Source: Emiliania huxleyi CCMP1516
Lineage: Eukaryota
Assembly (NCBI RefSeq): GCF_000372725.1
Contig: NW_005202113.1
Location: forward strand, 186,001 to 250,000
Length of the DNA: 64,000 nucleotides
Direction of reading: 5' to 3'
Every line of letters starts with the position of its first letter. Positions within the stretch are counted from its first letter, which is position 1. A program made the translations under genes and the position numbers. This document shows, piece by piece, positions 3,296 to 32,947 of this stretch. A model generated the notes under the pieces. The model did no database searches and was not told where the DNA came from. It worked only from the letters and a program-made list of their open reading frames with translations.

Positions 3296-5762
3296 GGGCC
3301 TCCGCAGCGGCGCCGCGGCGACTGGCAGTGTCCGAACTGCCAGGCGAACGTCTTTGCGTCGCGCAGCGAGTGCTACCGCTGCCACGCGCCCAAGCCGGAC
3401 GAGAGCGGCGCGGAGCTCGGCGAGTCGCAGCCCGCAGAGGAGCGGTCGGTGCTCAAGGCGAGGTGGCTGCTGGAGGAGGCGGCGCGGCTCGAGGAGCAGG
3501 CGCGGCGCGAGGAGGGCGGGTGGGAGGACGAGGCGGACGACGCGCCCGGCCGCGCCTTTGTGCCGCAAGAGGCTGCGTACCGCTGGCACAAGCGCGACGA
3601 CGCGTCAACGCGGCTCGAGCCGGCGGCGAAGCGGCGGATGATGGTGGAGGCGGCGGGGGAGCGGACGGCGGCGGGCGGGCTCGTCGCGCCGCGCATCAAC
3701 GAGGCGCACAGGCGGGAGTGGGGGGGCGCGAGCAAAGGGTGGAGGGTGTGGGGGAGGGTGGCTCTGCACGGCTCTGCTGCGGGCGTCCGAGGGGGCGGCG
3801 AGGAGGGGCGGAATGCCCGGGTGTGAAGTGTGTGGTGTGAAGGTTAGGTGTGAGAGTGAGGTGTGAGGTGCGAGGCGTGAGGCGTGAGGCGTGAGGTGTG
3901 AGCCCCCGCGACCCCCCCGCAGGTGCTCGAGGTGTCGACGGCGGCGGCGCGGCGTCCGCAGGCGCAGCTCCCGCCCGGCACTCGTCTCGTGGCCGGGACT
4001 GCGTCGGCGATGACGAACCCGCGCCCGTCTACGCAACTCGTCTGCCTGCACGACCTCTCGCAGCTCCTCGCCGCCGCCGGACCCTCCGCTGCGGCGGCGG
4101 CGCCCTCAGCCCCCTCCGGCGCCCAGGCCGCCTCTGCGCCCGCCCCAGAGCCCGACCCCGCCGCGGCGCGCCGCTCGCTCTTCGGCCTCGTCGAGGCGCG
4201 GCGGCGGCGGGGAGGGGAGAGACTCGCCGTCGGCTTCCCCTCGAGTCGCGCCGGAATGGCCCGAGACTAGGCGCATGCCGGCGGAGAGGAGTGCGCGGCG
4301 TGGGTGGCGTCCGAGCTACCACGTCGGCTGGCGGCGCGCCTCGCCGACTGCTCCGACTCGGCGGCGATCAAGGCGGCGGTCCGCGAGGCGTACGAGGCGT
4401 GCGACGCCGCCCTGATCGCAGAGGCAGAGGCGCGCGGATGGGGAGGCGGCTGCGGCGTCGGCACGCGCACCGCCCTCCTCCCGCCACCTCGCCCCGCCCC
4501 GGCCGCCCCTCATCCCGGCCGCCCCTTCACCCCGCCGCCGCCGCGCTGTCAGGCCTCCTCCTCGTCGACACGTGATATACACATATGCACTGTCAGGCCT
4601 CCTCCTCGTCGACACGTGCCCCACGCCGCCGCGCGCGTACCTCGCCAGCCTGGGCGCCGGGCGCGCCTTTGCCTGCTGCAAGCAGGACGGCCAGGCGGCG
4701 CGCGCGGTGCCGCTGGGCAGGCCGCACTCCGCCGCCGACGCGAAGGAGAAGGGGCGGCTCGCAAAGGCGGGCGCCACCGCGAGCGGCGGACTTGTCTGTG
4801 GGCTCCCCGTCTCGCGCTCGCTCGGCGACGGCGCGGCCAAGCGGGCCGCGCCGGGCGTGCTGCTCCCCATGCCGGACGTGTCCTCCTTCGACATCAGCGC
4901 CGCGCAGCGCTTTGTGCGCCCTCCGCAGCCCCCTGCCGAGATGCGCCGAGATGCGCCGAGATGCCGAGAGGCGCCGAGAGGCGCCGAGAGGCGCCGTTTG
5001 CGTGTGGCGGCGGCCCCGCCCCGCCGCTGACCGAGGGCGGCGCGCGCTCTCTCCACAGGTGCTGCTTGGCTCGAGCGGCGCGTGGAAGGGAGGCGCCGCC
5101 GCCGGCGAGACCGCCGTGCAGAAGCTCAGCGCGGAGCTCGCGCGGATGGACGCGCGGCGCAACGAGATTGCGGTGATGGCGCACGCTCGCGGGGGCTTTC
5201 CCGCCCCGCCGCCTCTCACGCTGGCCGCCCCTCGCCCCACTCGCCACCGCAGGCGATGCTCTCGGACGACTCCCGCCTCGCCCTGCTGGCTGCGGGGAGG
5301 GTGAATGCGCTGCAGCGTGAGCGAGACGAGCGCGCATGCGAGGGTGCCGTGCTCGCCGACCTCTCTCGCTCCCTGGCGGGAGGCAAGCAGCTGGCCGACC
5401 CGCCGTTTGCCCTCCTCCTCGTGCGGACCCTGCCGCCGGACGACCGCGCCGCGGTGGCGCTGCACGCGGCCTCCACCGCCGCCGCCGCCGCCGCCGCCGC
5501 GGCGCTCGCGAGTGCGCAGCCAGCCGGCGCATTGGGTTCTGGTGGCGCAGGGCCAGGGGAGGCGTCAGAGGTGGCGGGGGAGGCGGAGAAGGGGGCTGCG
5601 GCGGCGGGGGCGGAGGTGGAGGAGGAGGAGGAGGAGGAGGAGGAGGAGATGGACGAGGAGGAGCGGGCCGCCCTCGCGCAGCGTGAGGAGCAGCGCCGGC
5701 AGGAGGCGAAGGAGCGAGGTGCGGCGGCGGAGCAGGCCAATGTGGTGGTCGACTTTTTCTAG
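2945..5762 (+). CDS. Multi-exon protein with three RanBP2-type zinc fingers and a degenerate PP2C-like domain
   Basis: Three GDWxCPxCxANVFxSxxECxxC motifs (2980-3390); later exons read AYLASLGAGRAF, PLGRPHS, LPVSRSLGD, PDVSSFDI, VLLGSSGAW, ANVVVDFF, following PP2C motif order; exon limits only partly resolved. Confidence 0.7.
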
Positions 5763-6092
5763 CCCCCAGCGCCCGGGTTAATCGCCGCCACTCTCACTGG
5801 CAGCATGCTCAAACAATGCCCTTGGCCCAATGCTCGCGGCCTAGAACGCCCGGTCCGCGCCCCGGTCTGTGCGGTCTCCCGCTGTCTTTTTGCTTCTTAC
5901 ATTCTCCGTGTGTGTATAGAAGTCTACCTTACCTTACCTTACCGTAAGGCTTACCTTCGAGAGAACCTAATGTTTTTACACCTTGTGATTTTTGGGTCAA
6001 AATCGTCGTGATTTCCAGAAGCCGTTTGCGCCTAAGTCCCCAGCGCGTAGCGGCGGGTGTGCGCGTCCCGGAGCGTCCGAGGCGGGTAGTGC

Positions 6093-9000
6093 ATGTCGGG
6101 CTTCGCCGTGTACGACGACAGTGTCAGCAGCGGAGGTGCTGGTGGCACTGGTGGCAGCGGCGGCGACGGCGGCGTGCGCGTGGGTGCCGACAGCGACTTG
6201 TTCTTTGACGCCATGGAGGACGAGCCGTGCTGCCGCTGTGGCATGTGGGGCGGCAACGCGGATTCGATGCCATGCGACGACGTACACACGCTGCTGGGGG
6301 CTGAGATGCTCACCACGTGCGGCGTCTGTGGGGTGATGCGCCAAGAAGACGCGCCTGAGGCGCTGGCGGGAACGGCGGCAGGTAGCGAGGATGAAGAGGA
6401 GGAGGAGGAGGAGGAGGAAGAGGAGGGGGGGGAGAACGAGGACCCGGGCGGGAACATGTCGGACGACGGGTTCGGCGAGGGCGGCGGCGGGGGCGGCGGC
6501 GGCAGCGGCGGAAAACGCGACATGAAGCAGATCCGCGCTCACATCGGCGAGTTGTACGAGATGCGCAATCCTGACAAGCGCGAGACGCCGAAGTCGAGGC
6601 ACAAGGCGGCGCTCACGGTAGCTACGGTCATCTCGGAGCTGCTCGCCAAGCGCCCCCTGCTCGAGGCCGAGATTGTCAACCTCGTCATCCACCAGCGGTC
6701 GGCGCCGGTGCGCGCAAAGCTGCGGCTGCTCCACACGATGCAGCAGGAGCAGTACCTCGCTGCGCGCGACGTCGTCCGCTTCCTCGAGACGAAGTGCTTC
6801 AACGCGCTGCACTCGCTCGACATACGCGCGAACAAGACGCTCTCCATCTCCATCCTCAACGCGATACGCGCCTTTTCGACGGTCGACGGGAAGCGGATTC
6901 TCTTGCCGCACGGCATGCCTCCCGCCTTCGGTAAGGGGCAGGTCAACACACGCAAGTCGAACACCGAGCAGGGCATCGGGCGCAGCCCCCTCCTCGCCCC
7001 GTTCGCGGTCAAGTCGTCTGTCGAGATTCGCGAGCAGATGGACGTCACCCTCGGCGGGCGGGAGCTGCACCTCGCGACCGACCACGACGGCGCTGCGTGG
7101 GACGTCTGCGTGACTGGCACCGAGGTCTTCCAGCAGGCGTTGAAGGAGGGCAACCTGCTGCCGCGCCCCCCCAACATTCTGCGACGGCTGCAGCTGCTCT
7201 TTGACGGCCACGGCTGGACGAAGGCCATCGGCGCCGCCCGCTTCCTCCTCCGCACGCCGGAGCTCCGGCGCGACTTCAACGCGACCAGGTTCGCTCGCGA
7301 CTACAACTTCATCCTCGGCGCGGACAAGCTCGCCTACCTCGAGCTGGCGATCCGCACGGGCGGCGAGAAGTCCCTCTTCGCGCGGGCGATGGCTGGCTGC
7401 AAGGTGGAGGAGGTGCCCGTCGCCTCGCTGCCCGACAACGTGCGCAACTCGGAGGTCCCGCCGTGCTCCGAGGAGACGGGCTCGCTCCACGCCTTCCAGC
7501 GCTTGGCGGCCATCAGGTGCGCTCTCGCCCCGTAGATGCCTCAACCTAGTATATCCCGCCCACCCTAGTCCCAGTTCCTAGCACTAGCCGCAGCCGTAGC
7601 AGTAGCAGTAGCGTAGTAGTAGCACAGGGCGGCTGAGAGGCGATAGTAGAGGCGAGGAGAGCGAGAGGAGAGCGAGAGCGTGCCGCTGTGTGAACCGACT
7701 GTGAACTCACTTTTCTCTCAAGAAATGCAACGCGAGATTAATCTTGCCGACTGCAACCGGGCCGTTTTCTCATAAACAGGCGAGATAGCATAAAGAGAGC
7801 TTTAATAACGACTGTGAACTTACCCAGACGACTTCGCTACCCGTACCGCGACTACTCTGGGTACCCTCACCGACTCTGACCGCCCATCCCCCGCTTCGTA
7901 GTTGCACCGTGCGGCTCACGCTTCCAGCCGGCCAGGGGCCGGATCAGGACGTGTGCCAGGTCTGCCCCGACGAGCAGGAGGTCGAGCTGACCACCGCGGG
8001 CGACCGTGCGGCGGCGCACGCCGCAGGTGCGATCGACACGCCCGTCTGCCGCCACGGCTGTTGCTTCCGCTGCTGCCTGCCAAAGTCGAAGTGGTTCGAC
8101 GTTGCGGCAATCAACCGGGCGTGGCGGCGCAACTTCGCCTATCAGTGCACCGCCAATCACGTCAACCTGCGGCGCATTCTCGGCGACAAGCTCGAGCCGG
8201 GCGAGGACTTTCGGTGCCCGCATTGCAATGTGCTGGTCGACGAGGCCCTCGAAAAGAAGGAGGCGGAGGAGTGGGAGGCGGCGGACGAGGCGGGCCGCGA
8301 CAAAATTCGGCTGAAGCACAGCAAGTCGCATTCCGGCGCGCTGCGGGGGAAGACGCCGCTGCTGCCGATGGACAACTGCAAACGGGCTTCGAGCGCGCTG
8401 CATCGCCGCATGAATGCTTGCGGCAATAACATCGCCGCGACGTTCATGGCGGTGCCGTTCAAGCCGAAGATGCGCGACGCGGCCAACGAGCTGCTCAAGA
8501 AGCACAAGGTGGTGTGGCGCTTCCCGACAAAGAAGAAGAAGCGCGCATCTACACCCCTCGGCAATGACGCGCGCAAGTTTCACAGCTGCCCTGGCCTCAT
8601 CGTCGGGCTCGTCGAGATCTTCTACCCCGATGCAAAGGAGGGGGCGCAGAAGGAGCTGGTGGACTTGCGCCGCGCAGCGGCCGGCGCCACGGACGTGCGC
8701 AACGCGCCCGACGAGCAGCAGGCGCGCCCCCTCGACTTAGCGCAAAATCGAGGCTCACAAAAAAGAAAACACTCTAATACTATCTTATAACCGGCCATCA
8801 CCACACACCCTAGGCGTCCCGCCGCGCCTCGGCAGCCAACAAGCGCAAGGCGCCGACGCGGGGGCCGGTCGATGACGTCGCGATGATCGGCGGAGGGCAG
8901 GTGGAGGCGGAGGAGCTGTCGGAATACGCGGCCGGGCGGCGGGCCGAGGCAGCGCAGGCGCGCGCGCCGGCGCCGGCGCGGCGCGCCGCGGCGGATGACG

Positions 9001-9945
9001 ACGTCCTCGACGACGCCAGCGCGCCCGACGACTCCAGTGTCGACGACGCCCTCGACCTCTCTGGCGGCGGCCCCGACGACGAGAATGGCGAGATGCGCGA
9101 CTACCTCGAGCTGGAGGAGAACGAGGCCACCGGCACCGCGCTGACCGCCATCCGCGTGTGGTTGACGTCGATCAAGCACCAGGCCGACGTGCACGCGCCG
9201 ATCGGCAAGTACGTGGGAGGCGTCTGGGTCGACGGCCACTTCGACATGGAGCAGCGGCGCGAGTACGGTGAGAAGGGGCAGGCGTCGGGGCTCGCGTGGG
9301 CGCAGGCGCTGCAGAAGCACACCGCGAACAGGGCGGCGTGGCAGTACCCGCACGACTCGGCCGCCCACTTCCTCGAGGATGCGCTCGAGCACGGCGCCGC
9401 CTCCCGCAACGACGACTCGATCCTCGAGAAGGGGAACCGTCTCGTCAAGCGCATCGGCGACCGCTGCATCTTCCGGTGCTCCCTCCACAGCATCATCCCA
9501 TGCACCGCTCTGCGCTCACAGCCGATCCGACTGCCCCGTGCCTGCAGGGGCGGCAAGAACCCGACGGCCACGGTCGGCCCCGACGGCGAGAAGATCTACC
9601 AGCAGCCCTACTGGGACAAGATCATCTTTGTCGAGGAGTACGACTCGGACGGCAAGCCGACCGGGCAGCTCGTTGAGAAGACGATCCGCGTCCGGGCGAT
9701 GCTCGGGCACGCGGCGCAGAAGCAGCGGCTGCACGCGTGCGCGCAGCTGCTCGAGTACGAGCTGCGCGGCAACAAGCAGCAGCGCACCGACAAGGTGCAG
9801 GCGACGCTCGACCGGCGGGCGGAGGTGCGGGAGGAGGGCCGCGACGCGACGCTGAACGCCGCGGAGAATCTCGAGAGCAAGCTCGCCGTCGTCTCGGTGG
9901 AGCAGCCGAGCAGCAGCAGTGCCGCGGAGGCGGAGAGCGCCGGCT

Positions 9946-9981
<36 letters not shown>

Positions 9982-10157
9982 GGCCGTCGAGCGGATCCTC
10001 GCCGATCATCCTCTCGGAGCCCTACATCGCAAAGATGAAGGTGCCCGACTTGAAGGCCGCGCTATTGGCGCGCGGGGTGGCGTCATCGAAAAAACTTAAG
10101 GCCGACTTGGCGGCGGAGCTCAAGGCGCTCGAGCAGCGGCGCGCGGCGCGGACATAG
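6093..10157 (+). CDS. RAG1/Transib-like DDE transposase with C-terminal SAP domain (~1171 aa); exons 6093-7516, 7902-8721, 8814-9475, 9548-10157
   Basis: LLFDGHG (D, 7203); TAGDRAAAHAAG..CFRC (D, 8002, plus CxxC); SALH; GNDARKF; YPHDSAAH (HxxxxH); LEKGNRL (E, 9426). Same order as RAG1 core motifs SCDG, GYDEK..CTLC, DALH, GNFARKL, YFHKTLAH, NESGNKL. C-terminal KMKVPDLKAALLARGV..KKLKADLAAEL is SAP-like. Spliced frame is open. Confidence 0.82.
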
Positions 10158-10213
10158 GCGGCAGAAGAAAACGTGCCCGCCGACGCGCGTTGCAGATGGC
10201 GTATCGCAGTTTC

Positions 10214-10420
10214 CGACAGACTGCGTGCAGCGGGCTAGCAGTGCCCCGACAGACTGTAGTACGTTTCCATGTGCAATGGGCTAGCAGTGTCCCGACAGAC
10301 TGCGTGCAGCGGGCTAGCAGTGTCCCGATAGACTGTAGTACGTTCCATGACCATGTGCAATGGGCTAGCAGTGTCCCGACAGACTGTGTGCAGTGGGCTA
10401 GCAGTGTCCCGATAGACTGC
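10214..10420. repeat. Tandem repeat between the two transposon genes; 25-bp core GGGCTAGCAGTGTCCCGAYAGACTG x5 plus a partial copy
   Basis: Core visible repeatedly, with alternating short (~33 bp) and long (~46-51 bp) units. Confidence 0.9.
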
Positions 10421-10483: not shown

Positions 10484-11822
10484 CTAGAGCGGCTGCAAAA
10501 ACTGGAGCATGTCCGCCGAGACCTGTCCAGCTGGGAGGTTGCGTGCGTGGTGCGCGAGCGCCTTCTTGTAGCCATGGATCACCTGGGGGGAGTAGAACTC
10601 GCCGTCTGCTGCGTTGCCCGGCCGTGCCCACCGAAAGATCCGGTCGGTCGCCAGCGAGAAGAAGTGGCCCGTCACGATGAGCTGCGTGGCCGCCGCCGGC
10701 TCGTCCGCGCCGACGCGCTGGGTACGGAAGCGGAACTCGAGCGGCGGCACCAGCAGCATGAGCGTGCCATTCTCCTGCTTCTTGACGACCGAGGAGAGGA
10801 AGGGGCGGATCATCTCGTCGACAATGTCCTGCGAGCTGATTTTGAAGCTGTCCTCGATGTGCTTGCCGCCGTGCCCGCCCCGGAGCGCCGTGATCTCGCT
10901 CACGTACTTCTTGAGGTGCTCTGCGGGGGTGGGAGGGGGGGGGGGGTGGGCTCGAGCGGGAGGGAGTGGCTTGGGTTGTCGGCTCGCCTGGCGCGTCGGC
11001 CTTGATGCGCTGGTGGAGGAAGAAGACGACCCACGGCGGACAAATGGCTAGTTTAAGGAGGAGTCGCGAGTGCGCGACCCCGCGCTGCTTGTCGAGCACG
11101 CGGAACATGTGCCGAGCGAGCTCGTTGCGGTAGGACCCAACCAGCTGCGCCGCGACGTCCTCCGTTACGTGAAGCTGATCCTGCATGACAAAGGGAGTGC
11201 CGCCGCCGCTCGCCCGACCCCGGCCGGACGGCACAAAGCTCTCGACGAGCGCCGGGTCGATATCGTCCTCGTCCACCCACTGGTAGCGCACGCACGCGAG
11301 GCCTTCCGCCATATCCGCCTCGCTCAGGTCCCACTCGGGTCCCCAGTCAACCCAGTACTGCAGAATGCCCTCGCGTATGCGGCTCTTGAGCACCGCGTGC
11401 ACCTGAAACTGGTCGTCGCCGAGGTGCCCAGCGGCCCCGCCCCAGACCGCCTCCGGGTCCACCTCCATGTTCTCCACCGCGGCGCCGACTCGAGCGACAC
11501 GGTCGGCAGGAACCGTCTCATCCCACCTCGCCGCCCAGCCGAGGAAGTGGACGCGGTACTCGCCGTCCTCGGTGACGTGCACAATCTTGGCGCCGTACCA
11601 CTTCCCGAACCTGTCGCGGGCTTGGACCTCATCGCCGGCAGAGAAGCTGCCGATGCCGCGCACACGCGCCGAGTCCACCCACTCGTCGCACCTTGCGTTC
11701 CAGCCGTGGTAGTGCACCTTGTAGCTCAGGCCGCTGCTCTCCTCGAGGCTCTGCTTTATTACCGCCTGATACCACACCCCGTTCTGCTCGGCATCCACCT
11801 TTGTGCCAGCGGCCAGTGGCAT
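10484..11822 (-). CDS. Transposon-borne chromatin-reader protein: two Tudor-knot/chromo-barrel domains, a chromodomain and an unknown C-terminal domain (~423 aa); exons 11822-10988, 10920-10484
   Basis: GTKVDA..WYQAVI..YKVHYHGWNARCDEWV; GDEVQARDRFGKWYGAKI..YRVHFLGWAARWDETV; FQVHAVLKSRIREGILQYWVDWG..QWVDEDDIDPALVESF; one GC-AG intron (10987-10921) restores the frame. Confidence 0.85.
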
Positions 11823-11917
11823 GCCCCCCCGCACGCTCTGGGGACTTAGACGAATCGAGCTACGCAAATCGCGACGATTTTGCTAGGGCACCGTCACAAG
11901 GTGTACTCGAATTTGCC

Positions 11918-11991
11918 ATGTGCATGCACATGCACATGTGCATGCGCGTTTGTGCATGTCACATGCACATGCACATGTGCATGTGCATGTG
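11918..11991. repeat. (ATGCAC/ATGTGC)n alternating purine-pyrimidine microsatellite
   Basis: Direct reading, just outside the right TIR. Confidence 0.85.
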
Positions 11992-12736
11992 CTCTGGATC
12001 CTCTGTGAACAGAGTACAGACATTCCGAACACTCTCTCGGCTGTCGGCTCTCAAGACTCAACAAACAACAATGTGTGAGTGTTGTTTATTATTGCTCTCT
12101 GTGCTTGTGCGCACTTCATCCTTCATGCGAACGGGTGGTGGTGGTGGTTGGGGGGGTGGGGTTATCCCAGCCGCCCGCCGAGCCAAGAATTTACTAAACG
12201 AGGGAGAATTCGTGCTTTGTGGTGACGACCACGAGTGGCCTGCCCAGCTTTGGACGCCTGGTTTCATGATGGCGGAGATGAGGCCGCCCAGGCGCAAGGC
12301 CGCGGGCAACGCAAGTCCCACTAGCAAGGCCGCGGGCGACGCAAGTCCCACTAGCGTGCTCTCCTACCGGCTGGCGCCGGACGTCTCAACAGCGCCGGAC
12401 AACGCAGGCACCGCTGACGACAACGAGAGCGGTGGTTCACCCTCGGTTCACATGCCGTCAGAGATGATGCACGGGGTGGTGCTCGCAACCCTGATGGTGG
12501 TAGGCGTGTACTGCTGGCCGTCTTGACACTGTAAGCCCTACCCCTCCTGTTGGATGCTCGGATGCTCACCGCGTTGCGAGTTTTGTGCGCGTGATATGTG
12601 CAGAGTGTTTTCCCCTGTGCGGGTGTCCCGTGTTCAGTGCGTTGAAGCCAAACCTGTGTGCATAGCTCTCTGCATACCCACTCTTCAAAACGAGCAAACA
12701 TCGACACCGCTGTGCGACTCGTCATATCGCGCCGTC

Positions 12737-26145: not shown

Positions 26146-26984
26146 GGAAGTTGACTTCTCTCGCCTGCATGTAGGAATCCTAGTCGTTTACCCAAACAGT
26201 GTGTGGAGAAGTTTACCTTGCCTATAGGTTGCCTTGCGGGTTACCTTCTTTTTGAGACCGATTGAGAGAGAGAGGAACAGAGAATCCCAAAAATATTTTC
26301 TGACGGTCATATTTGGCAAATTTTCTGTGCATTCTCGTGGAGAGAGAAGATCGTGAAGAGATCCCTCAGCGCCTCACTCACTCTCACACCGCGCACACAC
26401 GAAGCGACACAAGATCGTGCCACTATGTCAAAACTACAGGGGTAGGCAATGAAACGGAGCTTTGCGCCCTTTCCCACCCGCCGGGGGGGCACCCAGGCCG
26501 GCCACCTGATCGGTAGTGGTGGACGGGAGGCGCGAACAGCGCCATCTTGGGGTCTACACGCCGACCAGTGCTCCCGTCAGTGACCAGGAAGAGGGGCTGC
26601 GTGGCCTTCTCAGCCGCCGGCCGCGCGTCCGTGTGGTCTACAGTTAACGAACCACGAGCCCTGCTTCCGTTTTAACACAAATTGGGTGGCGAACTCGGCG
26701 CCCATAGCTCTGGCTCGAGTTTTAGCGATTATGTCGCGAAACGCATTAGCCGCTACATCGAAATTGCCGAGGTAGCCGAAATCACAGCTTCCGCTGTAGC
26801 GGCTAATGCGTTCCCCGAGGTCATGATCGTGGGCGGAAAACGAACCGGCACCCCGGCGGGGCACCTTACGGGCTGTGTTAAAACGAGAGCTAAGGTCCCG
26901 ATTTCACAGTGGGCCGCAGGAAAAGACACGCGATGAACCCGCACCCATCGAGCTAGCTTCGAGGCGCCTTCAAAGCAGGTCGCA

Positions 26985-29900
26985 ATGGCGCCGAAGAAGA
27001 AGCCTGCACACGGCCGCAAGGCCAAGGGCGTCATGCAAGGCGCTCATCGTCCTCCAAAGGAGGTCTCTGGTGCAGCCGGCTCGCGCGGTCCGTCTGAGCC
27101 CTCGTCACGATCGGAAGCACCACAATACGAGGCTGTCGGCGGCGAGTGGGTGGTGTGCCAAAAGCAGACGCGCAGTCAGCGAGCTGAAGCCGCTCAAAAG
27201 GCCTCTCGCGCGTCTACCGTCCAAAAGGCGCGGCTGCCCGCCGCAGCCGCCGCCTCCAAGGCTGGGCAGACCGCCTCCGCTTGCGTTCGCCAACCCGGCT
27301 ACGGCAAAGGTCGGTCACCCGCGACCGCCACAGGCGCCAGGACGGCGCAGCGGCCTCGCCTTGAGGACTCGCAGCTGACTAGCGCCGCTGGCGTCGCGAC
27401 GGGTAGCCTCAGCGTGCAGCTGGCGGAGGCTGCGGCCGCAGACGCACTCGAGGCCCTCGAGACCGGTGTGCAGACTAGGCAATCTGCGTTGGCGAGGTCG
27501 CAGCTGCTGCGAGCGCAGCGGGCGGAGATTGAGACTGCGCTCGCCAATCTGCGCGAGCTCTGGCAGGAGAAGGAGCGCGACATGCTGCGCCTGCTCTCCA
27601 ACCCGCAGGCTGCGTGGGGCACAGATGCCGTCTGGCAGCTGTCCATGGCCGAGTTTGCCTTGGAGACCATGGACGAGAACGCCGTCGCACTCAAGCCTCG
27701 CCGGCTAGGAATGTGCTTTCGCGCGCTTGCCGAGCAGGCGCGGCACCCCGACGAGATCCCGCGCCTCCGCGGGCTGTACGAGCTGCACGCCCTCCACGCG
27801 GTGCTGCAGCGCAGCCCCAGCCTCCAGCGCGAGCTGCGGGTCCAGCTCGAGCGCTTTAAGCGACAATACTGCTCGTTGCTGCGCGGCGCCGGACGCTTTC
27901 GCACGCTCGAGGTCCTGCCCGGCGAGACGATCCTCGAGCTTATGCGGCGCACTCACGTGGCCATGCTCTCGTGGCGGCCTCCCGGCAGACCCGGCGCGGC
28001 GGCGTCGACCCTGGCGCTGCCCGCGAGCCGAGCGGGGGGTATCTACCTCCCAGAATGGCGAGAGGAGACGAACGTGCTCTACCATTCGGCGGCGGGTAAG
28101 ACCCTCTCGCTGCGTGGCGCGCAGGGCGTCGCCACGGCCTGCTCGAAGCGGTACCTGAAGTCGCTCCCGGAGGCGGAGCGGCCGCAGCACGAGAGCCACG
28201 AGACGGTCCGCTTGCACGACATGCAGTTCTGGTTCGTGCAGCGCCAGAGAGCTGTGGAGAACTCCTTCTCGAAGCGGCGAAACGTGCTGCAGTGGGACGA
28301 GGTGACGATCAACAAGGTGGCCTGGGTCGTCGTCACGCTGTCGTGCGAGAGGCTGCCGGCGCTGCGTGAGCGCGAGGTGATCGCCACCTTTAAGCTCCGG
28401 CCAGACGCCGATGGCCACAAGAAGACGGGCGTGAACGTCGGCGCGAGCAACGTGCGCGCGGTCAACGAGCTCGGCCTGCCGATCGATCGGATCGACTTCT
28501 GCGTCTCCGACGGCACCGCCTCCAATGCCAGCTTGACCATTGCGTCGGAGCGGCACAAGGGCGGCGCCTTTGCGCACATCTGGACCTCGATGCGTGCGAC
28601 AAAGCACGTGCTGTGCTTTTTTATCCTCTGCTTGTCCCACGTGATCAACAACGAGGTGAAGAATGTCTGCGAGGCGGCTGGTGCCTGCCGCCGCGAGCAC
28701 CTGCTCGCGCACTCGGGCTCCACCAAAAGCGGACGGCATCGCATCCCGGAGGCGCGCCACGCCCGACGTAAGAGGCGCTCACACACCCCTCCACCGCTTC
28801 CCCACGCTCCCTCTGACGCAGCTGCTGGCCGACGTCGTGCTCGCCGTCAAGGAGTCGAAGGGCTGCAAAAACTATGTCCGCGTCTCGGAGGGGCTGGCGC
28901 GTCTCGGCGACATGCCGGGAGGCGTGGACACCCGGTGGCTCTACTGGGTGTACACGTGCATGTGGCTGGCGCCCACGACGCGGCGCCTCGAGCTGATCGT
29001 GTGCTGTCTCTTGCACGAGTGGCTCTGCGCGCAGGGCGACGAGGGGCTCTTTGCCGACGCCGAGCAGACCGACGAGTTCGGTGAGAAGCTGGCGCTGTCT
29101 GGCGCCACGCTGCTCGAGAAGGTGAGCTCGATCAAGGACGCCGCGCGGCGCGAGCTGCTGCTTGAGCTCCTCGACCCGGAGATACGCGTGTGGCTCTCGT
29201 TCCTGGCCATCTACGGCGAGCGGTCGGCCGACCGCTTCCTCAAGTTTACCGAGAACGACGGGCCGGGCGTGGCGTTCAAGGCACCCCGCGTGCTTCGCCT
29301 GCGGCTCGCCTACCTCGACGCGCTCGCCAGCGACAACGACGAGACGCGCGACCTCGAAGGCGGCCGTCCATGGAAGGGCGACTTTGCGCCGCTGCGAGCA
29401 ATGGTCGCCAAGAACACGGCGGCGTTCTCGCGCCTGGATGTGCGGGCCATCGTGCGCAAGGCCGCACGCGCTGCTTCTACCTACTTCCGACAGCACACGG
29501 CAGCGTGGCGGACGAACCCCGCGCTCGTGGCGCTGGGAACTATGGACGAGGAGGGAGAGCATGCTGTTCTCTCGGCGCAGGAGCTGCTGGCGCTCGCGAA
29601 GCAGGGCCGGGGAGGCTTAATCCAGAGCATGCTGCCGCACCTCCCCGACTCGGCCGATGCCACCGAGCTCAGCGCTGCAATCACCAACGCCACCGAGGGG
29701 GTCGGCCTCTGGTTTCAGGACGACGCCCTCGGCGTCTTTAAGCTGCTGGCAAGCTGTAAGCGGCCGACGCAGCTGCGCGACGTGGCGGGCGGTAGCGACG
29801 TCTACGATTCCATCTGGAGCGTCGGCGTCTTTGTGCCGATCAGCAACTTCTTCTCGGAGACGGTCGTCAAGACGCTCTCTCGCGATTTGCACGGGACGCA

Positions 29901-31572
29901 GCGCCGGTCGGAGATGTGCGCGACAAGGCTCACGGCACCGCGGCACCGCGGGCACGTTTACCCGACAACGGCAGCCGATTGGAGCGCCGCGTCGGCCGCT
30001 CTCGGACACAACGTGTCCAAGCGAGTCACCGAGAAGGAGGGCCTCGCCGCGCAGCTGCAGGATCTCCGGCTCGATAGCATGGAGCTCTCGGCGTTCGTGG
30101 ACGAGCCGCAGGAGGAGGAGGAGGAGGGCGGGGCGGAGGAGGAGGGGGAGGAGGGCTCGGGCGAGGCCGGAGGCTCGACCGACGCGGCCGACGGCGGGAC
30201 GGCGAGCTCGGCGGAGGGCGAGGGTCGCCAGCCGGGCTGGCCGTTGGAGAAGGGCGTGAGCACAGCGGCGATCCGGAGGTCGCTGCAGGTGGGGAACGTC
30301 GTGGAGGTCCTCTGGGCCGTCCGGCAGGATGGAGACCCAGAGGTGTACCTCGCTCGCGTCGAGGAGGTCATGAGAATCAAGATAAAGATTCGCTGGCTGC
30401 ACGAGGATACCGAGGAGGAGAACGTGTACGTGGAGTGCCCGTTCTTCACCAAGGTGGAGACATGGTCGATGAAACAGCTGTGGAACCCTGTCTCTGATGT
30501 GAGCCAGATTGGCTCGGCAGAGGCGCCTCGCTGGCGCCGCAGCGCGATAGCTGAGGACGCCGAGGCGGCTAGAGCCGCTGCCAACCGCGCCGAGGGTGGG
30601 GGGGTGTCGTGGGACACGATCATATCAGACATGGAAGCCCGCAGGAAGGGAGAAGAGACGGGAGGGGAGGACGAGGTCGAGGACGAGGCGCTGTTTGCCG
30701 GCAGACCCGGCTCCGACGACGAGGAGGTGGAGGTCGAGCTGGTGGAGCCAGAGCTACAGGGACCGCCCCACTTGCGCGTCGGCGAGGCTGGCTACATCTC
30801 ATCTTACCACCGGCAGTGGTTCAGCGACTCGAACCTCGCCAACGCACACTACGTAGACGAGCGTCCAGACGGCGAGAGTGGCGCCGACTCGCCGCTGCGG
30901 TACAACTACCCCCGCGACGTAGCCTCGGCATGCAGCATCTTCCGTCAAAGAGGAGGGCAGCGGGTGCTGCAACTCTGCGACTGCGTGATGTTGCAGCAGG
31001 TCTGCGACGGCGCCCATTGGCACAACGTCGCGCTCATCGGGCCTCAGCGGCTCGCCGTGCACTGGGAGCCGTTCGGCACCAGCATTTTCAGCCGCACGCA
31101 TCCTCTAGCGCGCGTTCGGGACGCCTTCGACGCGGCGCCAAAGGACACGGGCTGGCAGCTAGTCAGCGTGACGCTCAACTTGCAGAGCGACGGCTACCAG
31201 TGCGGGCCGTGGGCGCATTGGTTCCGCCGCCGCCTCTTCGCCTACTGCGCGGACGACGAGCTGATGAGCAAGCAGTCCTTTGCCGAGTACCTCTCGACCA
31301 GCCCGGGCATCAGCCCGCTCGGAGCGCTCAGGACCAGGAGGGAGCGAGAGGCCGCCGGCGCAGCAAACACGGCCTTCATGCACGAGGAGCGCGTGCGGCT
31401 GCGCTGGCTCCTCCGGGCAGCGGCGCGAGAGGACGCGCTTCCCTACGAGCATCCGCTGCAGGACGCCTTCCGCCGAGCAGGGGCTGCGGCGGCAGCGCGC
31501 GCGGACGCGGTCGTGCTCGACGAGGGCTTGGAAGGCGATGAAAAGTACTTCGACCTCTGTGACGACTCGTGA
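26985..31572 (+). CDS. hAT-like DDE transposase fused to a Tudor-like domain and a Ulp1/C48-like cysteine protease (~1505 aa); exons 26985-28751, 28822-31572
   Basis: LQWDEVT (D), CVSDGTASN (D), CLSHVIN (CxxH), DTRWL, VPISNFFSET (E); LQVGNVVEVLW..YLARV..IKIRW; GAHW..HWEPFG..LQSDGYQCGPW; one GC-AG intron (28752-28821). Confidence 0.8.
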
Positions 31573-31802
31573 CGGCCTGCACAGGTCGCCCTGGTCGCCG
31601 TCGCCGTCTCGCCGCCTCATCCGCCAACACGGCCGTCGCCGCCAGGGCCGCCACTGCCATCGCCATCGCCGTCGCTGCTTCGCCCACCACTACCAGGGCC
31701 GTTGCTCTACCGCTCCCCAAGCGTATTGCCGGTGCTGTCACGGGCTGCCACTCCTAGTACCTTGCTGCTCGGTCGCGTTCAGTCTAGGTCGACACGCTAC
31801 CC

Positions 31803-32476
31803 TGCCGTTCGGGCGCCGCTCACCGCTTCGCAGCGAGCCCGGGCTCTGTAAACATCTCCGTCGCGAGCTGCGCACGCCCCGCGGGTCCGTGTGACTGTAG
31901 CTGTATCTCCCAAACATCTCTCACAGCTCAAAGCGATCTCCCCTAATCTCCACGGCTCGAGATTGCACGAGATAAAAACGGCGCTTTCGAGGTGGTTCGC
32001 CGGAATCTGGATAGGGGAGCGCGTAGAACGCGCGCTGCTGGTGTGCACAGAGCCCGGGATGGCCAGCATCCGCCCTCGTGGTCGCGAACAGCGCCGGTCG
32101 GCGCGTGCGGCTCTGGCAGCCGCCCGGCCGCGTCGGAGCTGCAGAGAGCGGCACGCGGCCCGGTGCCGTTCGGGCGCCGCTCACCGCTTCGCAGCGAGCC
32201 CGGGCTCTGTAAACATCTCCGTCGCGAGCTGCGCACGCCCCGCGGGTCCGTGTGACTGTAGCTGTATCTCCCAAACATCTCCCGCAGCTCAAAGCGATCT
32301 CGGCCTAATCTCCACGGCTCGAGATTGCACGAGATAAAAACGGCGCTCTCGAGGTGGGGCGCCAAGATCTGGATAGCGGAGCGCGTAGAACGCGCGCTGC
32401 CGATGTGCACAGAGCCCGGGATGGCCAGCATCCGCCCTCGTGGTCGCGAACGGCGCCGGTCGACGCGTGCGGCTCT
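31803..32476. repeat. Tandem ~310-bp duplication (period 361 bp) in the 3' arm of the hAT-like element
   Basis: Near-identical copies start TGCCGTTCGGGCGCCGCTCACC at 31803 and 32164. Confidence 0.9.
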
Positions 32477-32947
32477 GCGTCAACCAGTACGGAGCCCGAA
32501 ATGCGTCCAAAAGTAAAAAAATCAGCTTTCCGCGCCTCTTCACTGCTCGCCGCCGCGCAGGCGCGTTCCGGGGGCCCAGTGGAGCATTTCATCTAGTGGC
32601 GGCACCAGCTCTAGAGAAATTTATAATTTCTCAGTGGGGTTTTGACATAGTGTCGTGCAGGTGCGGGGACAGGTCCCCGGATTTCCGTTAACTCACACAG
32701 CATGTGTCAGCATCCGCACAGAGACCACAGTTCCACACCCTTTACGAGCAGCCGCGCTCCGCCCCTACGCCCTAGCTCCGCCCCCTCGACCCGTCGACCC
32801 TTCGCGCGTCCCAGAGTGAGAGAGCTTCGCCTGCCAGCATCCAGCATTTTTTTTTCGTATGCCGCGGCGGTCGCGGATGTGGGATGAGTGAGGTCGCGAC
32901 ACGCACCCGACACGTTCTCTGACACACTACGTCAAGGGTATGTTTAG

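What the first reader, a model, noticed from the sequence alone, without database searches (positions are those of the whole stretch)
5979..6048. RSS-like asymmetric tripartite TIRs and a TA flank
Seen: three conserved blocks (10, 17 and 17 bp) separated by non-conserved spacers of 9 and 17 bp on the left and 11 and 16 bp on the right (11833-11903). Ends are CAC...GTG with TA outside each end and no 5-bp duplication. Known: RSS and ProtoRAG ends are CAC-initiated blocks with unequal spacers; Transib/RAG make 5-bp TSDs, while CMC members make 2-4 bp. Inference: a distinct lineage with a 2-bp TA TSD and possibly an end-pairing rule.
Basis: partly seen in the sequence, partly recalled or inferred. 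Interest (0 to 1): 0.7.

Follow-up and report, generated by a model that had tools for sequence, protein, structure and literature searches.

The report
Algal RAG1-fold transposon with unequal ends
These are the ends of a multi-copy jumping gene, likely from a marine alga, whose cutting enzyme is predicted to fold like the antibody-gene recombinase RAG1; its two ends differ by two bases in all seven ends read in full, but the flanking TA is peculiar to this one copy, and an end-pairing rule remains untested.

Summary
The blocks, spacers and TA flanks are exactly as described and beyond chance. They bound a young, multi-copy 5,925-bp element: an intact four-exon DDE transposase (relative's model matches RAG1, Foldseek E 7e-8) facing a convergent tandem-Tudor/chromo gene. 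TA stands at 2 of 9 single-sequence junctions, both this copy's, so it is neither part of the TIR nor a fixed target. The duplication is likely 2 bp of free sequence; no empty site was recovered. The working end is probably bipartite: a 570-bp MITE keeps blocks 1+2 with 9/11-bp spacers but lacks block 3 at one end, and spacer 2 varies (15-17). Spacer 1 is fixed in 7 of 7 ends and conserved in sequence (19/20), although the MITE's transposase remnant is 69% identical and inverted. CAC ends with TA duplications (ESTA, CNEST) and unequal bipartite ends (Transib, ProtoRAG, AanRAGL) are already published. New is the lineage: 97 protein clusters without a Pfam transposase match, one relative's cluster containing a haptophyte protein, and a chromatin-reader second gene. 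Verdict: new variant within the CMCT clade; pairing rule untested.

The parts
5977..5978 (.). TA, left copy of a 2-bp direct repeat (likely this insertion's target duplication; not fixed in the family)
   Evidence: other junctions
5979..5988 (+). Left block 1, CACCTTGTGA (terminal, presumed cleavage site)
   Evidence: contig matches start here in 4 of 4 runs
5989..5997 (+). Left spacer 1, 9 bp, identical in window, L011 and MITE L014
5998..6014 (+). Left block 2, imperfect palindrome AAATCG-N3-(C/T)GATTT
6015..6031 (+). Left spacer 2, 17 bp (16 bp in the X7 copy)
   Evidence: table 4
6032..6048 (+). Left block 3, 44 bp upstream of the transposase ATG; absent from the MITE's left end; likely promoter or accessory site
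6093..10157 (+). RAG1-fold DDE transposase gene, predicted exons 6093-7516, 7902-8721, 8814-9475, 9548-10157 (one GC-AG intron), 1,171 aa open; D371, D509, C529/C532, H642, H928/H933, E953; weak SAP/HeH-like tail
   Evidence: splicing inferred, not shown by RNA
10206..10419 (.). 33/84-bp tandem repeat between the two 3' ends
10484..11822 (-). Second gene, convergent: two Tudor-knot/chromo-barrel domains, a chromo-like third domain (motif recalled) and a C-terminal part without relatives; one predicted intron near 10918-11001 (junction not fixed), about 400-430 aa
11833..11849 (-). Right block 3, 10 bp upstream of the second gene's ATG
11850..11865 (-). Right spacer 2, 16 bp (15 bp and a different sequence in the MITE)
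11866..11882 (-). Right block 2, perfect palindromic half-sites AAATCG-TCG-CGATTT
11883..11893 (-). Right spacer 1, 11 bp (11 bp in window, L013, L014, L017)
11894..11903 (-). Right block 1
11904..11905 (.). TA, right copy of the 2-bp direct repeat

Best explanation
The blocks are the ends of a young, multi-copy 5.9-kb element that is likely a cut-and-paste transposon of the CMCT clade, with fixed unequal first spacers (9 and 11 bp), no fixed TA target and likely a 2-bp duplication of free sequence. Shown: the boundaries, several insertion sites, fixed spacer 1, variable flanks, an open transposase frame with the D-D-E, C(2)C and H motifs, a MITE family with the same ends, and a convergent Tudor/chromo gene. 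Inferred: a transposase dimer cuts at the terminal CAC block by RAG/Transib-type chemistry (established knowledge of the fold); an N-terminal helical region resembling RAG1's nonamer-binding domain would grip the palindromic block 2, so the working end is block 1 + end-specific spacer + block 2 (36-38 bp); block 3 likely serves as the promoter or an accessory site of the two inward-reading genes; the second protein likely reads methylated histones to steer insertion or ease silencing. The 2-bp spacer difference (about 70 degrees of helix) probably marks left from right, but I put a measurable preference for left-right pairs at about 0.3 and a strict 12/23-like rule at about 0.1.
For: Boundaries and multiple sites. 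Youth: L011 99.8% over 3,001 bp, L017 99.5% over 979 bp. Flanks: 0 of 7 non-window junctions with TA (L011 GT|, L014 CA|, L017 |GA, L013 |CA, L014 |GT, X1 |TC, X8 |CT); the L014 left end sits in a retroelement RNase H region whose empty form has no TA at the site. Only a 2-bp repeat flanks the window copy. Block 3 absent at the MITE's left end; ATGs follow block 3 by 44, 10 and (MITE) 6 bp. Catalytic and zinc residues conserved where aligned: D1 23/23, D2 13/13, C 14/15 and 15/15, H 12/12, H 10/10 and 10/11, E 6/7. Model of relative P0077 (pLDDT 73): Foldseek top hits RAG1 (E 7e-8), BbRAG1L 4e-4, HzTransib 0.02; VIA Z 13.7 (rmsd 7.7, 401 aligned) BbRAG1L, 13.4 RAG1, 8.9 HzTransib; two RAG1 rows align from model residue 46-50 to RAG1 395-400, at rmsd 11.6-13.5.
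Against: The 2-bp duplication rests on one copy and arises by chance about 7-8% of the time; no empty site of a paired insertion was recovered. The one contig holding both MITE ends (L014) shows no duplication, though its two flanks come from different target sites (empty left site continues differently), so it is uninformative. A minority of MITE contigs have a 10-bp right spacer 1 (X2: 3 contigs, depth 107 of 4,352; X8: 1 contig). The MITE may have taken its ends recently from the current element, which would explain their identity without selection. The fold was predicted for a relative (P0077), not for the window's spliced protein, and the only CMCT-type chains listed in the fold searches were RAG1/Transib ones, so the match cannot place the lineage inside the clade. 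Splicing and expression were not shown. TIRs of distant family members could not be fetched.
Confidence: 0.68

Rival explanations
1. The family inserts specifically at TA and duplicates it, like ESTA or CNEST.
For: The window copy has TA on both sides, and TA makes up only 1.7% of the window's dinucleotides. CAC-ended CMC/CMCT elements with TA duplications exist (PMC12730594 section 3.1.6; 10.1101/2025.05.19.654958 passages).
Against: 0 of 7 junctions from other copies have TA, two of them on contigs of the autonomous element (L011, L017); contig matches stop at CAC/GTG instead of running on through TA.
Confidence: 0.04
2. The element makes no duplication (or a variable one), and the window's TA/TA is coincidence.
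For: One informative copy only; chance about 7-8%; no duplication at L014.
Against: L014's flanks are from two different target sites. CMCT lineages make 2-5-bp duplications. Each of the three left-flank dinucleotides (TA, GT, CA) also occurs among the six right-flank ones, as 2-bp duplications would give, but these pairs are from different samples and this is weak (about 0.07 by chance, my estimate).
Confidence: 0.25
3. The 9/11 difference enforces an obligate left-right pairing like the RSS 12/23 rule, with the Tudor/chromo protein as a RAG2-like partner.
For: Spacer 1 fixed in 7 of 7 ends and kept in a MITE whose transposase remnant reads from the 11-bp end, the opposite of the window element; ProtoRAG prefers heterologous ends differing by only 4 bp, and 1-2-bp spacer deletions lower its activity (PMC8289069 abstract and section 8); convergent two-gene layout as in RAGL.
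Against: Offsets differ by 2 bp only; block 2 is a 17-bp palindrome, not an A-rich nonamer; the second gene has no kelch or PHD domain; only two related families were seen.
Confidence: 0.12
4. The spacer asymmetry is neutral: spacers are not contacted, drifted apart in an ancestor and are fixed only by recent descent of all copies.
For: All ends seen belong to one young family and its MITE; spacer 2 changes length freely (15-17); a minority of copies carry a 10-bp spacer 1.
Against: Spacer 1 is as conserved as the blocks between element and MITE (19/20) while spacer 2 and the interior diverged.
Confidence: 0.3

Closest known systems
ESTA, EnSpm-like transposons with TA TSDs (Kojima 2025, PMC12730594) and CNEST (10.1101/2025.05.19.654958)
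   Same: CAC...GTG termini, 2-bp duplication length, RAG1-like transposase (ESTA by HHpred), C(2)C and H motifs of the CMCT clade.
   Different: Their duplication is TA; here the target is not fixed. The ESTA entries seen (28 of 88 supplement hits) carry rust-fungus name codes; CNEST has 33-bp TIRs starting CACGG. Sequence kinship to either was not testable.
RAGL transposons: ProtoRAG and AanRAGL of the alga Aureococcus (PMC8289069, PMC9435367, PMC7204232)
   Same: RAG1 fold as best structural match; CAC-initiated bipartite ends with unequal spacers (27/31 and 4/13 there, 9/11 here); two-gene element, convergent as in ProtoRAG.
   Different: They make 5-bp duplications and carry kelch-PHD RAG2L; here no 5-bp duplication, a Tudor/chromo gene instead, 10-15% identity to RAG1/RAGL chains and no RAG1 hit by sequence.
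Transib (PMC1131882; HzTransib 6pqn)
   Same: CAC termini, DDE fold, some families with unequal RSS-like ends; MITE derivatives.
   Different: Heptamer CACAATG plus A-rich nonamer and usually 5-bp duplication versus CACCTTG plus a palindrome here; HzTransib scores below RAG1 (Z 8.9). A 2026 preprint reports Transib-lineage members with 3-bp and TA duplications, so TSD alone does not exclude kinship.
Chapaev / Chapaev3 (PMC4079192, PMC4411706)
   Same: Invariant CAC...GTG ends; CMC motifs.
   Different: 3-4-bp (TWA) duplications and N-terminal Chapa/RING zinc fingers; neither seen here.

Membership tests
CMCT clade | 5'-CA...TG-3' termini | tested here: met
   CAC...GTG in all ends read
CMCT clade | DDE triad with C(2)C and H(3-4)H motifs between second D and E | tested here: met
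   D371, D509, CxxC 529/532, H642, H928-x4-H933, E953, conserved in aligned relatives; assignment of D2 by spacing to CxxC is inferred from RAG1 numbering recalled from memory
CMCT clade | RAG1/Transib-type fold | tested here: met
   model of relative P0077:
CMCT clade | 2-5-bp target duplication | tested here: inconclusive
   2-bp repeat in one copy, chance 7-8%; no empty site
ESTA / CNEST | TA-specific duplication | tested here: not met
   0 of 7 other junctions have TA
ESTA / CNEST | Transposase clade membership | not testable with these tools
   ESTA sequences are shown cut in the supplement and are not loadable into the tools
RAGL / ProtoRAG | 5-bp duplication | tested here: not met
   no 3-10-bp repeat at the young window copy
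RAGL / ProtoRAG | RAG2L gene (kelch repeats + PHD) | tested here: not met
   second gene is Tudor-knot/chromo-barrel; its C-terminal 142 aa has no match
RAGL / ProtoRAG | Bipartite asymmetric TIRs | tested here: met
   10-bp block, 9/11 spacer, 17-bp block
RAGL / ProtoRAG | Preference for heterologous end pairs | not testable with these tools
   needs a cleavage or excision assay
Transib | CACAATG heptamer, 23-bp spacer, AAAAAAATC nonamer | tested here: not met
   CACCTTG, 9/11-bp spacer, palindromic block (against PMC1131882)
Transib | Phylogenetic placement with Transib transposases | not tested
Chapaev / Chapaev3 | 3-4-bp (TWA) duplication | tested here: not met
   flanks
Chapaev / Chapaev3 | N-terminal Chapa/RING zinc finger | tested here: inconclusive
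   no Pfam zinc-finger hit on exon 1; no Chapa profile was available to test directly
EnSpm / CACTA | CACTA/CACTG termini | tested here: not met
   termini CACCT
EnSpm / CACTA | Pfam EnSpm-type transposase domain | tested here: inconclusive
   no transposase family among hits for 31 and 12 aligned members at E <= 10 (25 of 47 families shown); remote homology not excluded

The most novel reading that the evidence does not exclude
A plankton lineage of RAG1-fold transposases has independently arrived at the two hallmarks of the RAG system: a left/right end-pairing rule, here written as a 9/11-bp spacer in front of a palindromic site, and a convergently transcribed partner that reads histone methyl marks (Tudor/chromo instead of RAG2's PHD), while other members carry a GNAT acetyltransferase inside the transposase.
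Probability: 0.12. Interest if true: 0.8.

Novelty: new variant of a known kind. Interest (0 to 1): 0.45.

Why it matters
RAG1's relatives outside animals are thinly sampled. An intact, recently mobile algal element with RAG1 as best structural match, a fixed 2-bp end asymmetry and an abundant MITE gives a small, testable system for asking how little spacer difference can impose end pairing, and how duplication length (5 versus likely 2 bp) changes on the same fold. Its chromatin-reader second gene, and the GNAT domains in 3 of 17 relatives scanned, point to repeated recruitment of chromatin functions by these enzymes.

Tried and rejected
No own genome was held, so no genome-wide junction list. 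TIR pattern in viral contigs: 6 of 6 hits judged chance from their printed context. Metagenome pattern scan: 4 of 11 loci were true ends; 7 were dropped as chance, having no BLAST match to the element. Relatives with flanking DNA: none in viral or prokaryote genome collections. No empty-site joint for the window locus among the 15 joints shown (57 not shown), and no joint on L014. Pfam gave no transposase family; DUF1280 at E 0.12 and 0.27 in 2 of 12 members is a lead only. PDB sequence search found nothing relevant; ESM Atlas gave only scores under 0.9; viral fold library no hit at E <= 0.001. The second gene's C-terminal part has no homologue (lengths 78-249 aa only). L013's right flank shares 8 letters with what a 2-bp duplication of L014's left site would give but then diverges and is not RNase H: rejected as a pair. 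An X7 loose-end consensus suggesting a MITE without right block 3 rests on short, mixed contigs and was not used. No complex prediction for transposase and second protein was obtained; binding is open. Literature searches returned no description of this haptophyte-type lineage or of a Transib-like element with a Tudor/chromo gene; Repbase Reports and subscription journals are outside the library.

Full report
Observation. The ends align with a score of 76, reached by 0 of 4,974 random window pairs and 0 of 5,000 shuffles. Of direct repeats 1-10 bp long at the flanks only the 2-bp TA matches. Measured from the end, block 2 starts after 19 bp on the left and 21 on the right, block 3 after 53 and 54.

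The element. The ends enclose 5,925 bp. On the + strand, four predicted exons (6093-7516, 7902-8721, 8814-9475, 9548-10157; GT-AG, GC-AG, GT-AG introns) give an open frame of 1,171 aa (splicing inferred). A search of 1.84 billion representatives with exon 1 found 97 clusters at E <= 0.001; exon 2 found 5 proteins at 45-53% identity. No Pfam transposase family appeared for the window exons or the aligned relatives. Where the alignment covers them, the residues D, D, CxxC, H, H-x4-H and E are kept in 23/23, 13/13, 14/15 and 15/15, 12/12, 10/10 and 10/11, and 6/7 rows. An AlphaFold2 model of the single-ORF relative P0077 (mean pLDDT 73) has RAG1 as its best Foldseek match (E 7e-8), then BbRAG1L (4e-4) and HzTransib (0.02); VIA gives Z 13.7, 13.4 and 8.9 with unrelated chains at 6.2 and below. 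The only CMCT-type chains listed were RAG1/Transib ones, so this shows the fold class, not the branch; an earlier scan note (e1-1911866, unchecked here) makes a similar caution. On the - strand, convergent, lies a gene starting at 11822 with two Tudor-knot/chromo-barrel domains (Pfam E 3e-16; best structural matches MRG2/MRG15 chromo-barrel and TDRD3 Tudor, Z 9.2-9.7 on a pLDDT-52 model) and a C-terminal part without relatives. High GC, a GC-AG intron and a Prymnesium member in a relative's cluster make a haptophyte host likely (inference).

Other copies. Fifteen of 16 listed runs hold part of the stretch. In 4 of 4 runs laid, contig matches begin at 5979 and end at 11903 or 11904. A metagenome scan that allowed 5-30 bp between blocks 1 and 2 returned 11 loci, 4 of them true: L011 (left 3,001 bp, 99.8%), L017 (right 979 bp, 99.5%), L013 (a MITE right end) and L014 (a whole 570-bp MITE).

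TA. Junctions read from single sequences: left TA (window), GT (L011), CA (L014); right TA (window), GA (L017), CA (L013), GT (L014), TC (X1), CT (X8). TA is at 2 of 9, both the window's. Three consensus rows of 3-4 contigs each (AT, AC, CC; agreement 0.53-0.58) were left out of this count; none reads TA. L014's left end sits in a high-copy RNase H region whose empty form reads GGAAACA then CACCAATAAC, without TA. So TA is neither part of the TIR nor a required target. Because the window copy is young and has no 3-10-bp repeat, its duplication is 2 bp or absent; 2 bp fits the clade's 2-5-bp range but would occur by chance 7-8% of the time. L014 shows no duplication, but its right flank is not the continuation of the empty left site, so it joins two insertions and cannot test the point.

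Spacers and blocks. Spacer 1 is 9 bp in 3 of 3 left ends and 11 bp in 4 of 4 right ends; a minority of MITE contigs lack one base of the right spacer (table 4). Between element and MITE, block 1 is 10/10 at both ends, spacer 1 is 9/9 and 10/11, block 2 is 15/17 and 17/17, while the MITE's interior holds a transposase remnant only 69% identical and reading from the 11-bp end, opposite to the window element (marginal by score, but it falls on the catalytic-E exon and keeps both splice sites of intron 3). Spacer 2 is 17 (16 in X7's copy) on the left and 16 or 15 with a different sequence on the right; block 3 is missing from the MITE's left end. The working end is therefore probably bipartite and end-specific. 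Block 2 is a palindrome, AAATCG-N3-CGATTT, suited to a dimeric binder. Block 3 lies 44, 10 and 6 bp before an ATG and more likely serves the genes.

Mechanism. Shown: boundaries, multiple sites, variable flanks, fixed spacer 1, intact frame. Inferred from the fold and from established RAG/Transib chemistry: a dimer cuts at CAC and joins the ends to a target with a short stagger; the N-terminal helices, which two VIA rows align to the start of the RAG1 core (RAG1 395-400 onward, rmsd 11.6-13.5), would bind block 2. A 2-bp offset is small, yet ProtoRAG prefers unlike ends that differ by 4 bp and loses activity with 1-2-bp spacer deletions (PMC8289069, abstract and section 8 read), so a preference is possible (about 0.3); a strict rule is unlikely (about 0.1). 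The second protein likely reads methylated histones; binding to the transposase is untested.

Comparison with print. CAC ends with TA duplications: ESTA (PMC12730594; abstract, passages, section 3.1.6 and supplement hits 1-28 of 88 with cut sequences seen) and CNEST (10.1101/2025.05.19.654958, passages); PlavakaA makes 2-bp duplications; a Transib-lineage element with an apparent TA duplication is in 10.64898/2026.08.26.747230 (passages; its supplementary table was not seen). Unequal bipartite ends: Transib (PMC1131882, passages), AanRAGL with 4/13 spacers and 5-bp duplications (PMC9435367, whole text), protostome RAGL (PMC7204232, passages). Chapaev: 3-4 bp, TWA, Chapa/RING domains (PMC4079192 and PMC4411706, passages). 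Haptophytes are called minor hosts of DDE elements (10.1101/2021.09.26.461848, passages). Eight searches found no account of this lineage; Repbase Reports are not covered, and the rest of the ESTA supplement could name further hosts. Two earlier scan notes (e1-7275536, e1-9881377; unchecked) report RAG1-like transposases paired with chromodomain genes in other genomes, so that pairing may be recurrent; none matched this protein by sequence.

Verdict. The element works like a RAGL/Transib transposon but fails the RAGL (5 bp, RAG2L), ESTA (TA), Chapaev (3-4 bp) and CACTA (terminus) tests, and meets the CMCT-clade tests except duplication length, which is inconclusive. It is a new variant of a known kind; interest 0.45.

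Noticed in passing
window 26421-32652: A second, unrelated TIR element: 14-bp TIR CACTATGTCAAAAC flanked by a 6-bp direct repeat TCGTGC, with long + strand ORFs (26985-29084, 28663-31572) that have no Pfam match and are not hit by this family's profile. CACTA ends with a 6-bp duplication would be unusual.
   Followed up: partly
L014 5431-6000: 570-bp MITE with the same ends; contig depth 8-40 times that of the autonomous element in four runs (depth is not copy number). It holds a 69%-identical remnant of the catalytic-E exon and the third intron, in the opposite orientation relative to the end types (43.7 bits against maxima of 39.2 and 42.8 in two controls of 100).
   Followed up: yes
proteins P0033, P0078, P0097: A GNAT acetyltransferase domain inserted inside the transposase between the zinc-binding parts (Pfam E 5e-5 to 9e-4).
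   Followed up: no
cluster of P0002: One member comes from the haptophyte Prymnesium polylepis (EukProt name), the only named host among the 10 clusters looked up.
   Followed up: no
L014 4900-5430: High-copy retroelement RNase H region (motifs recalled) that received a MITE insertion; its empty form continues with CACC, the same four letters as the element's end.
   Followed up: partly
window 5731-5961 and 11917-11992: The left flank is a very high-depth repeat (CCTTA-type runs) and the right flank a CATGCA-type microsatellite, which hampers recovery of the empty site.
   Followed up: no
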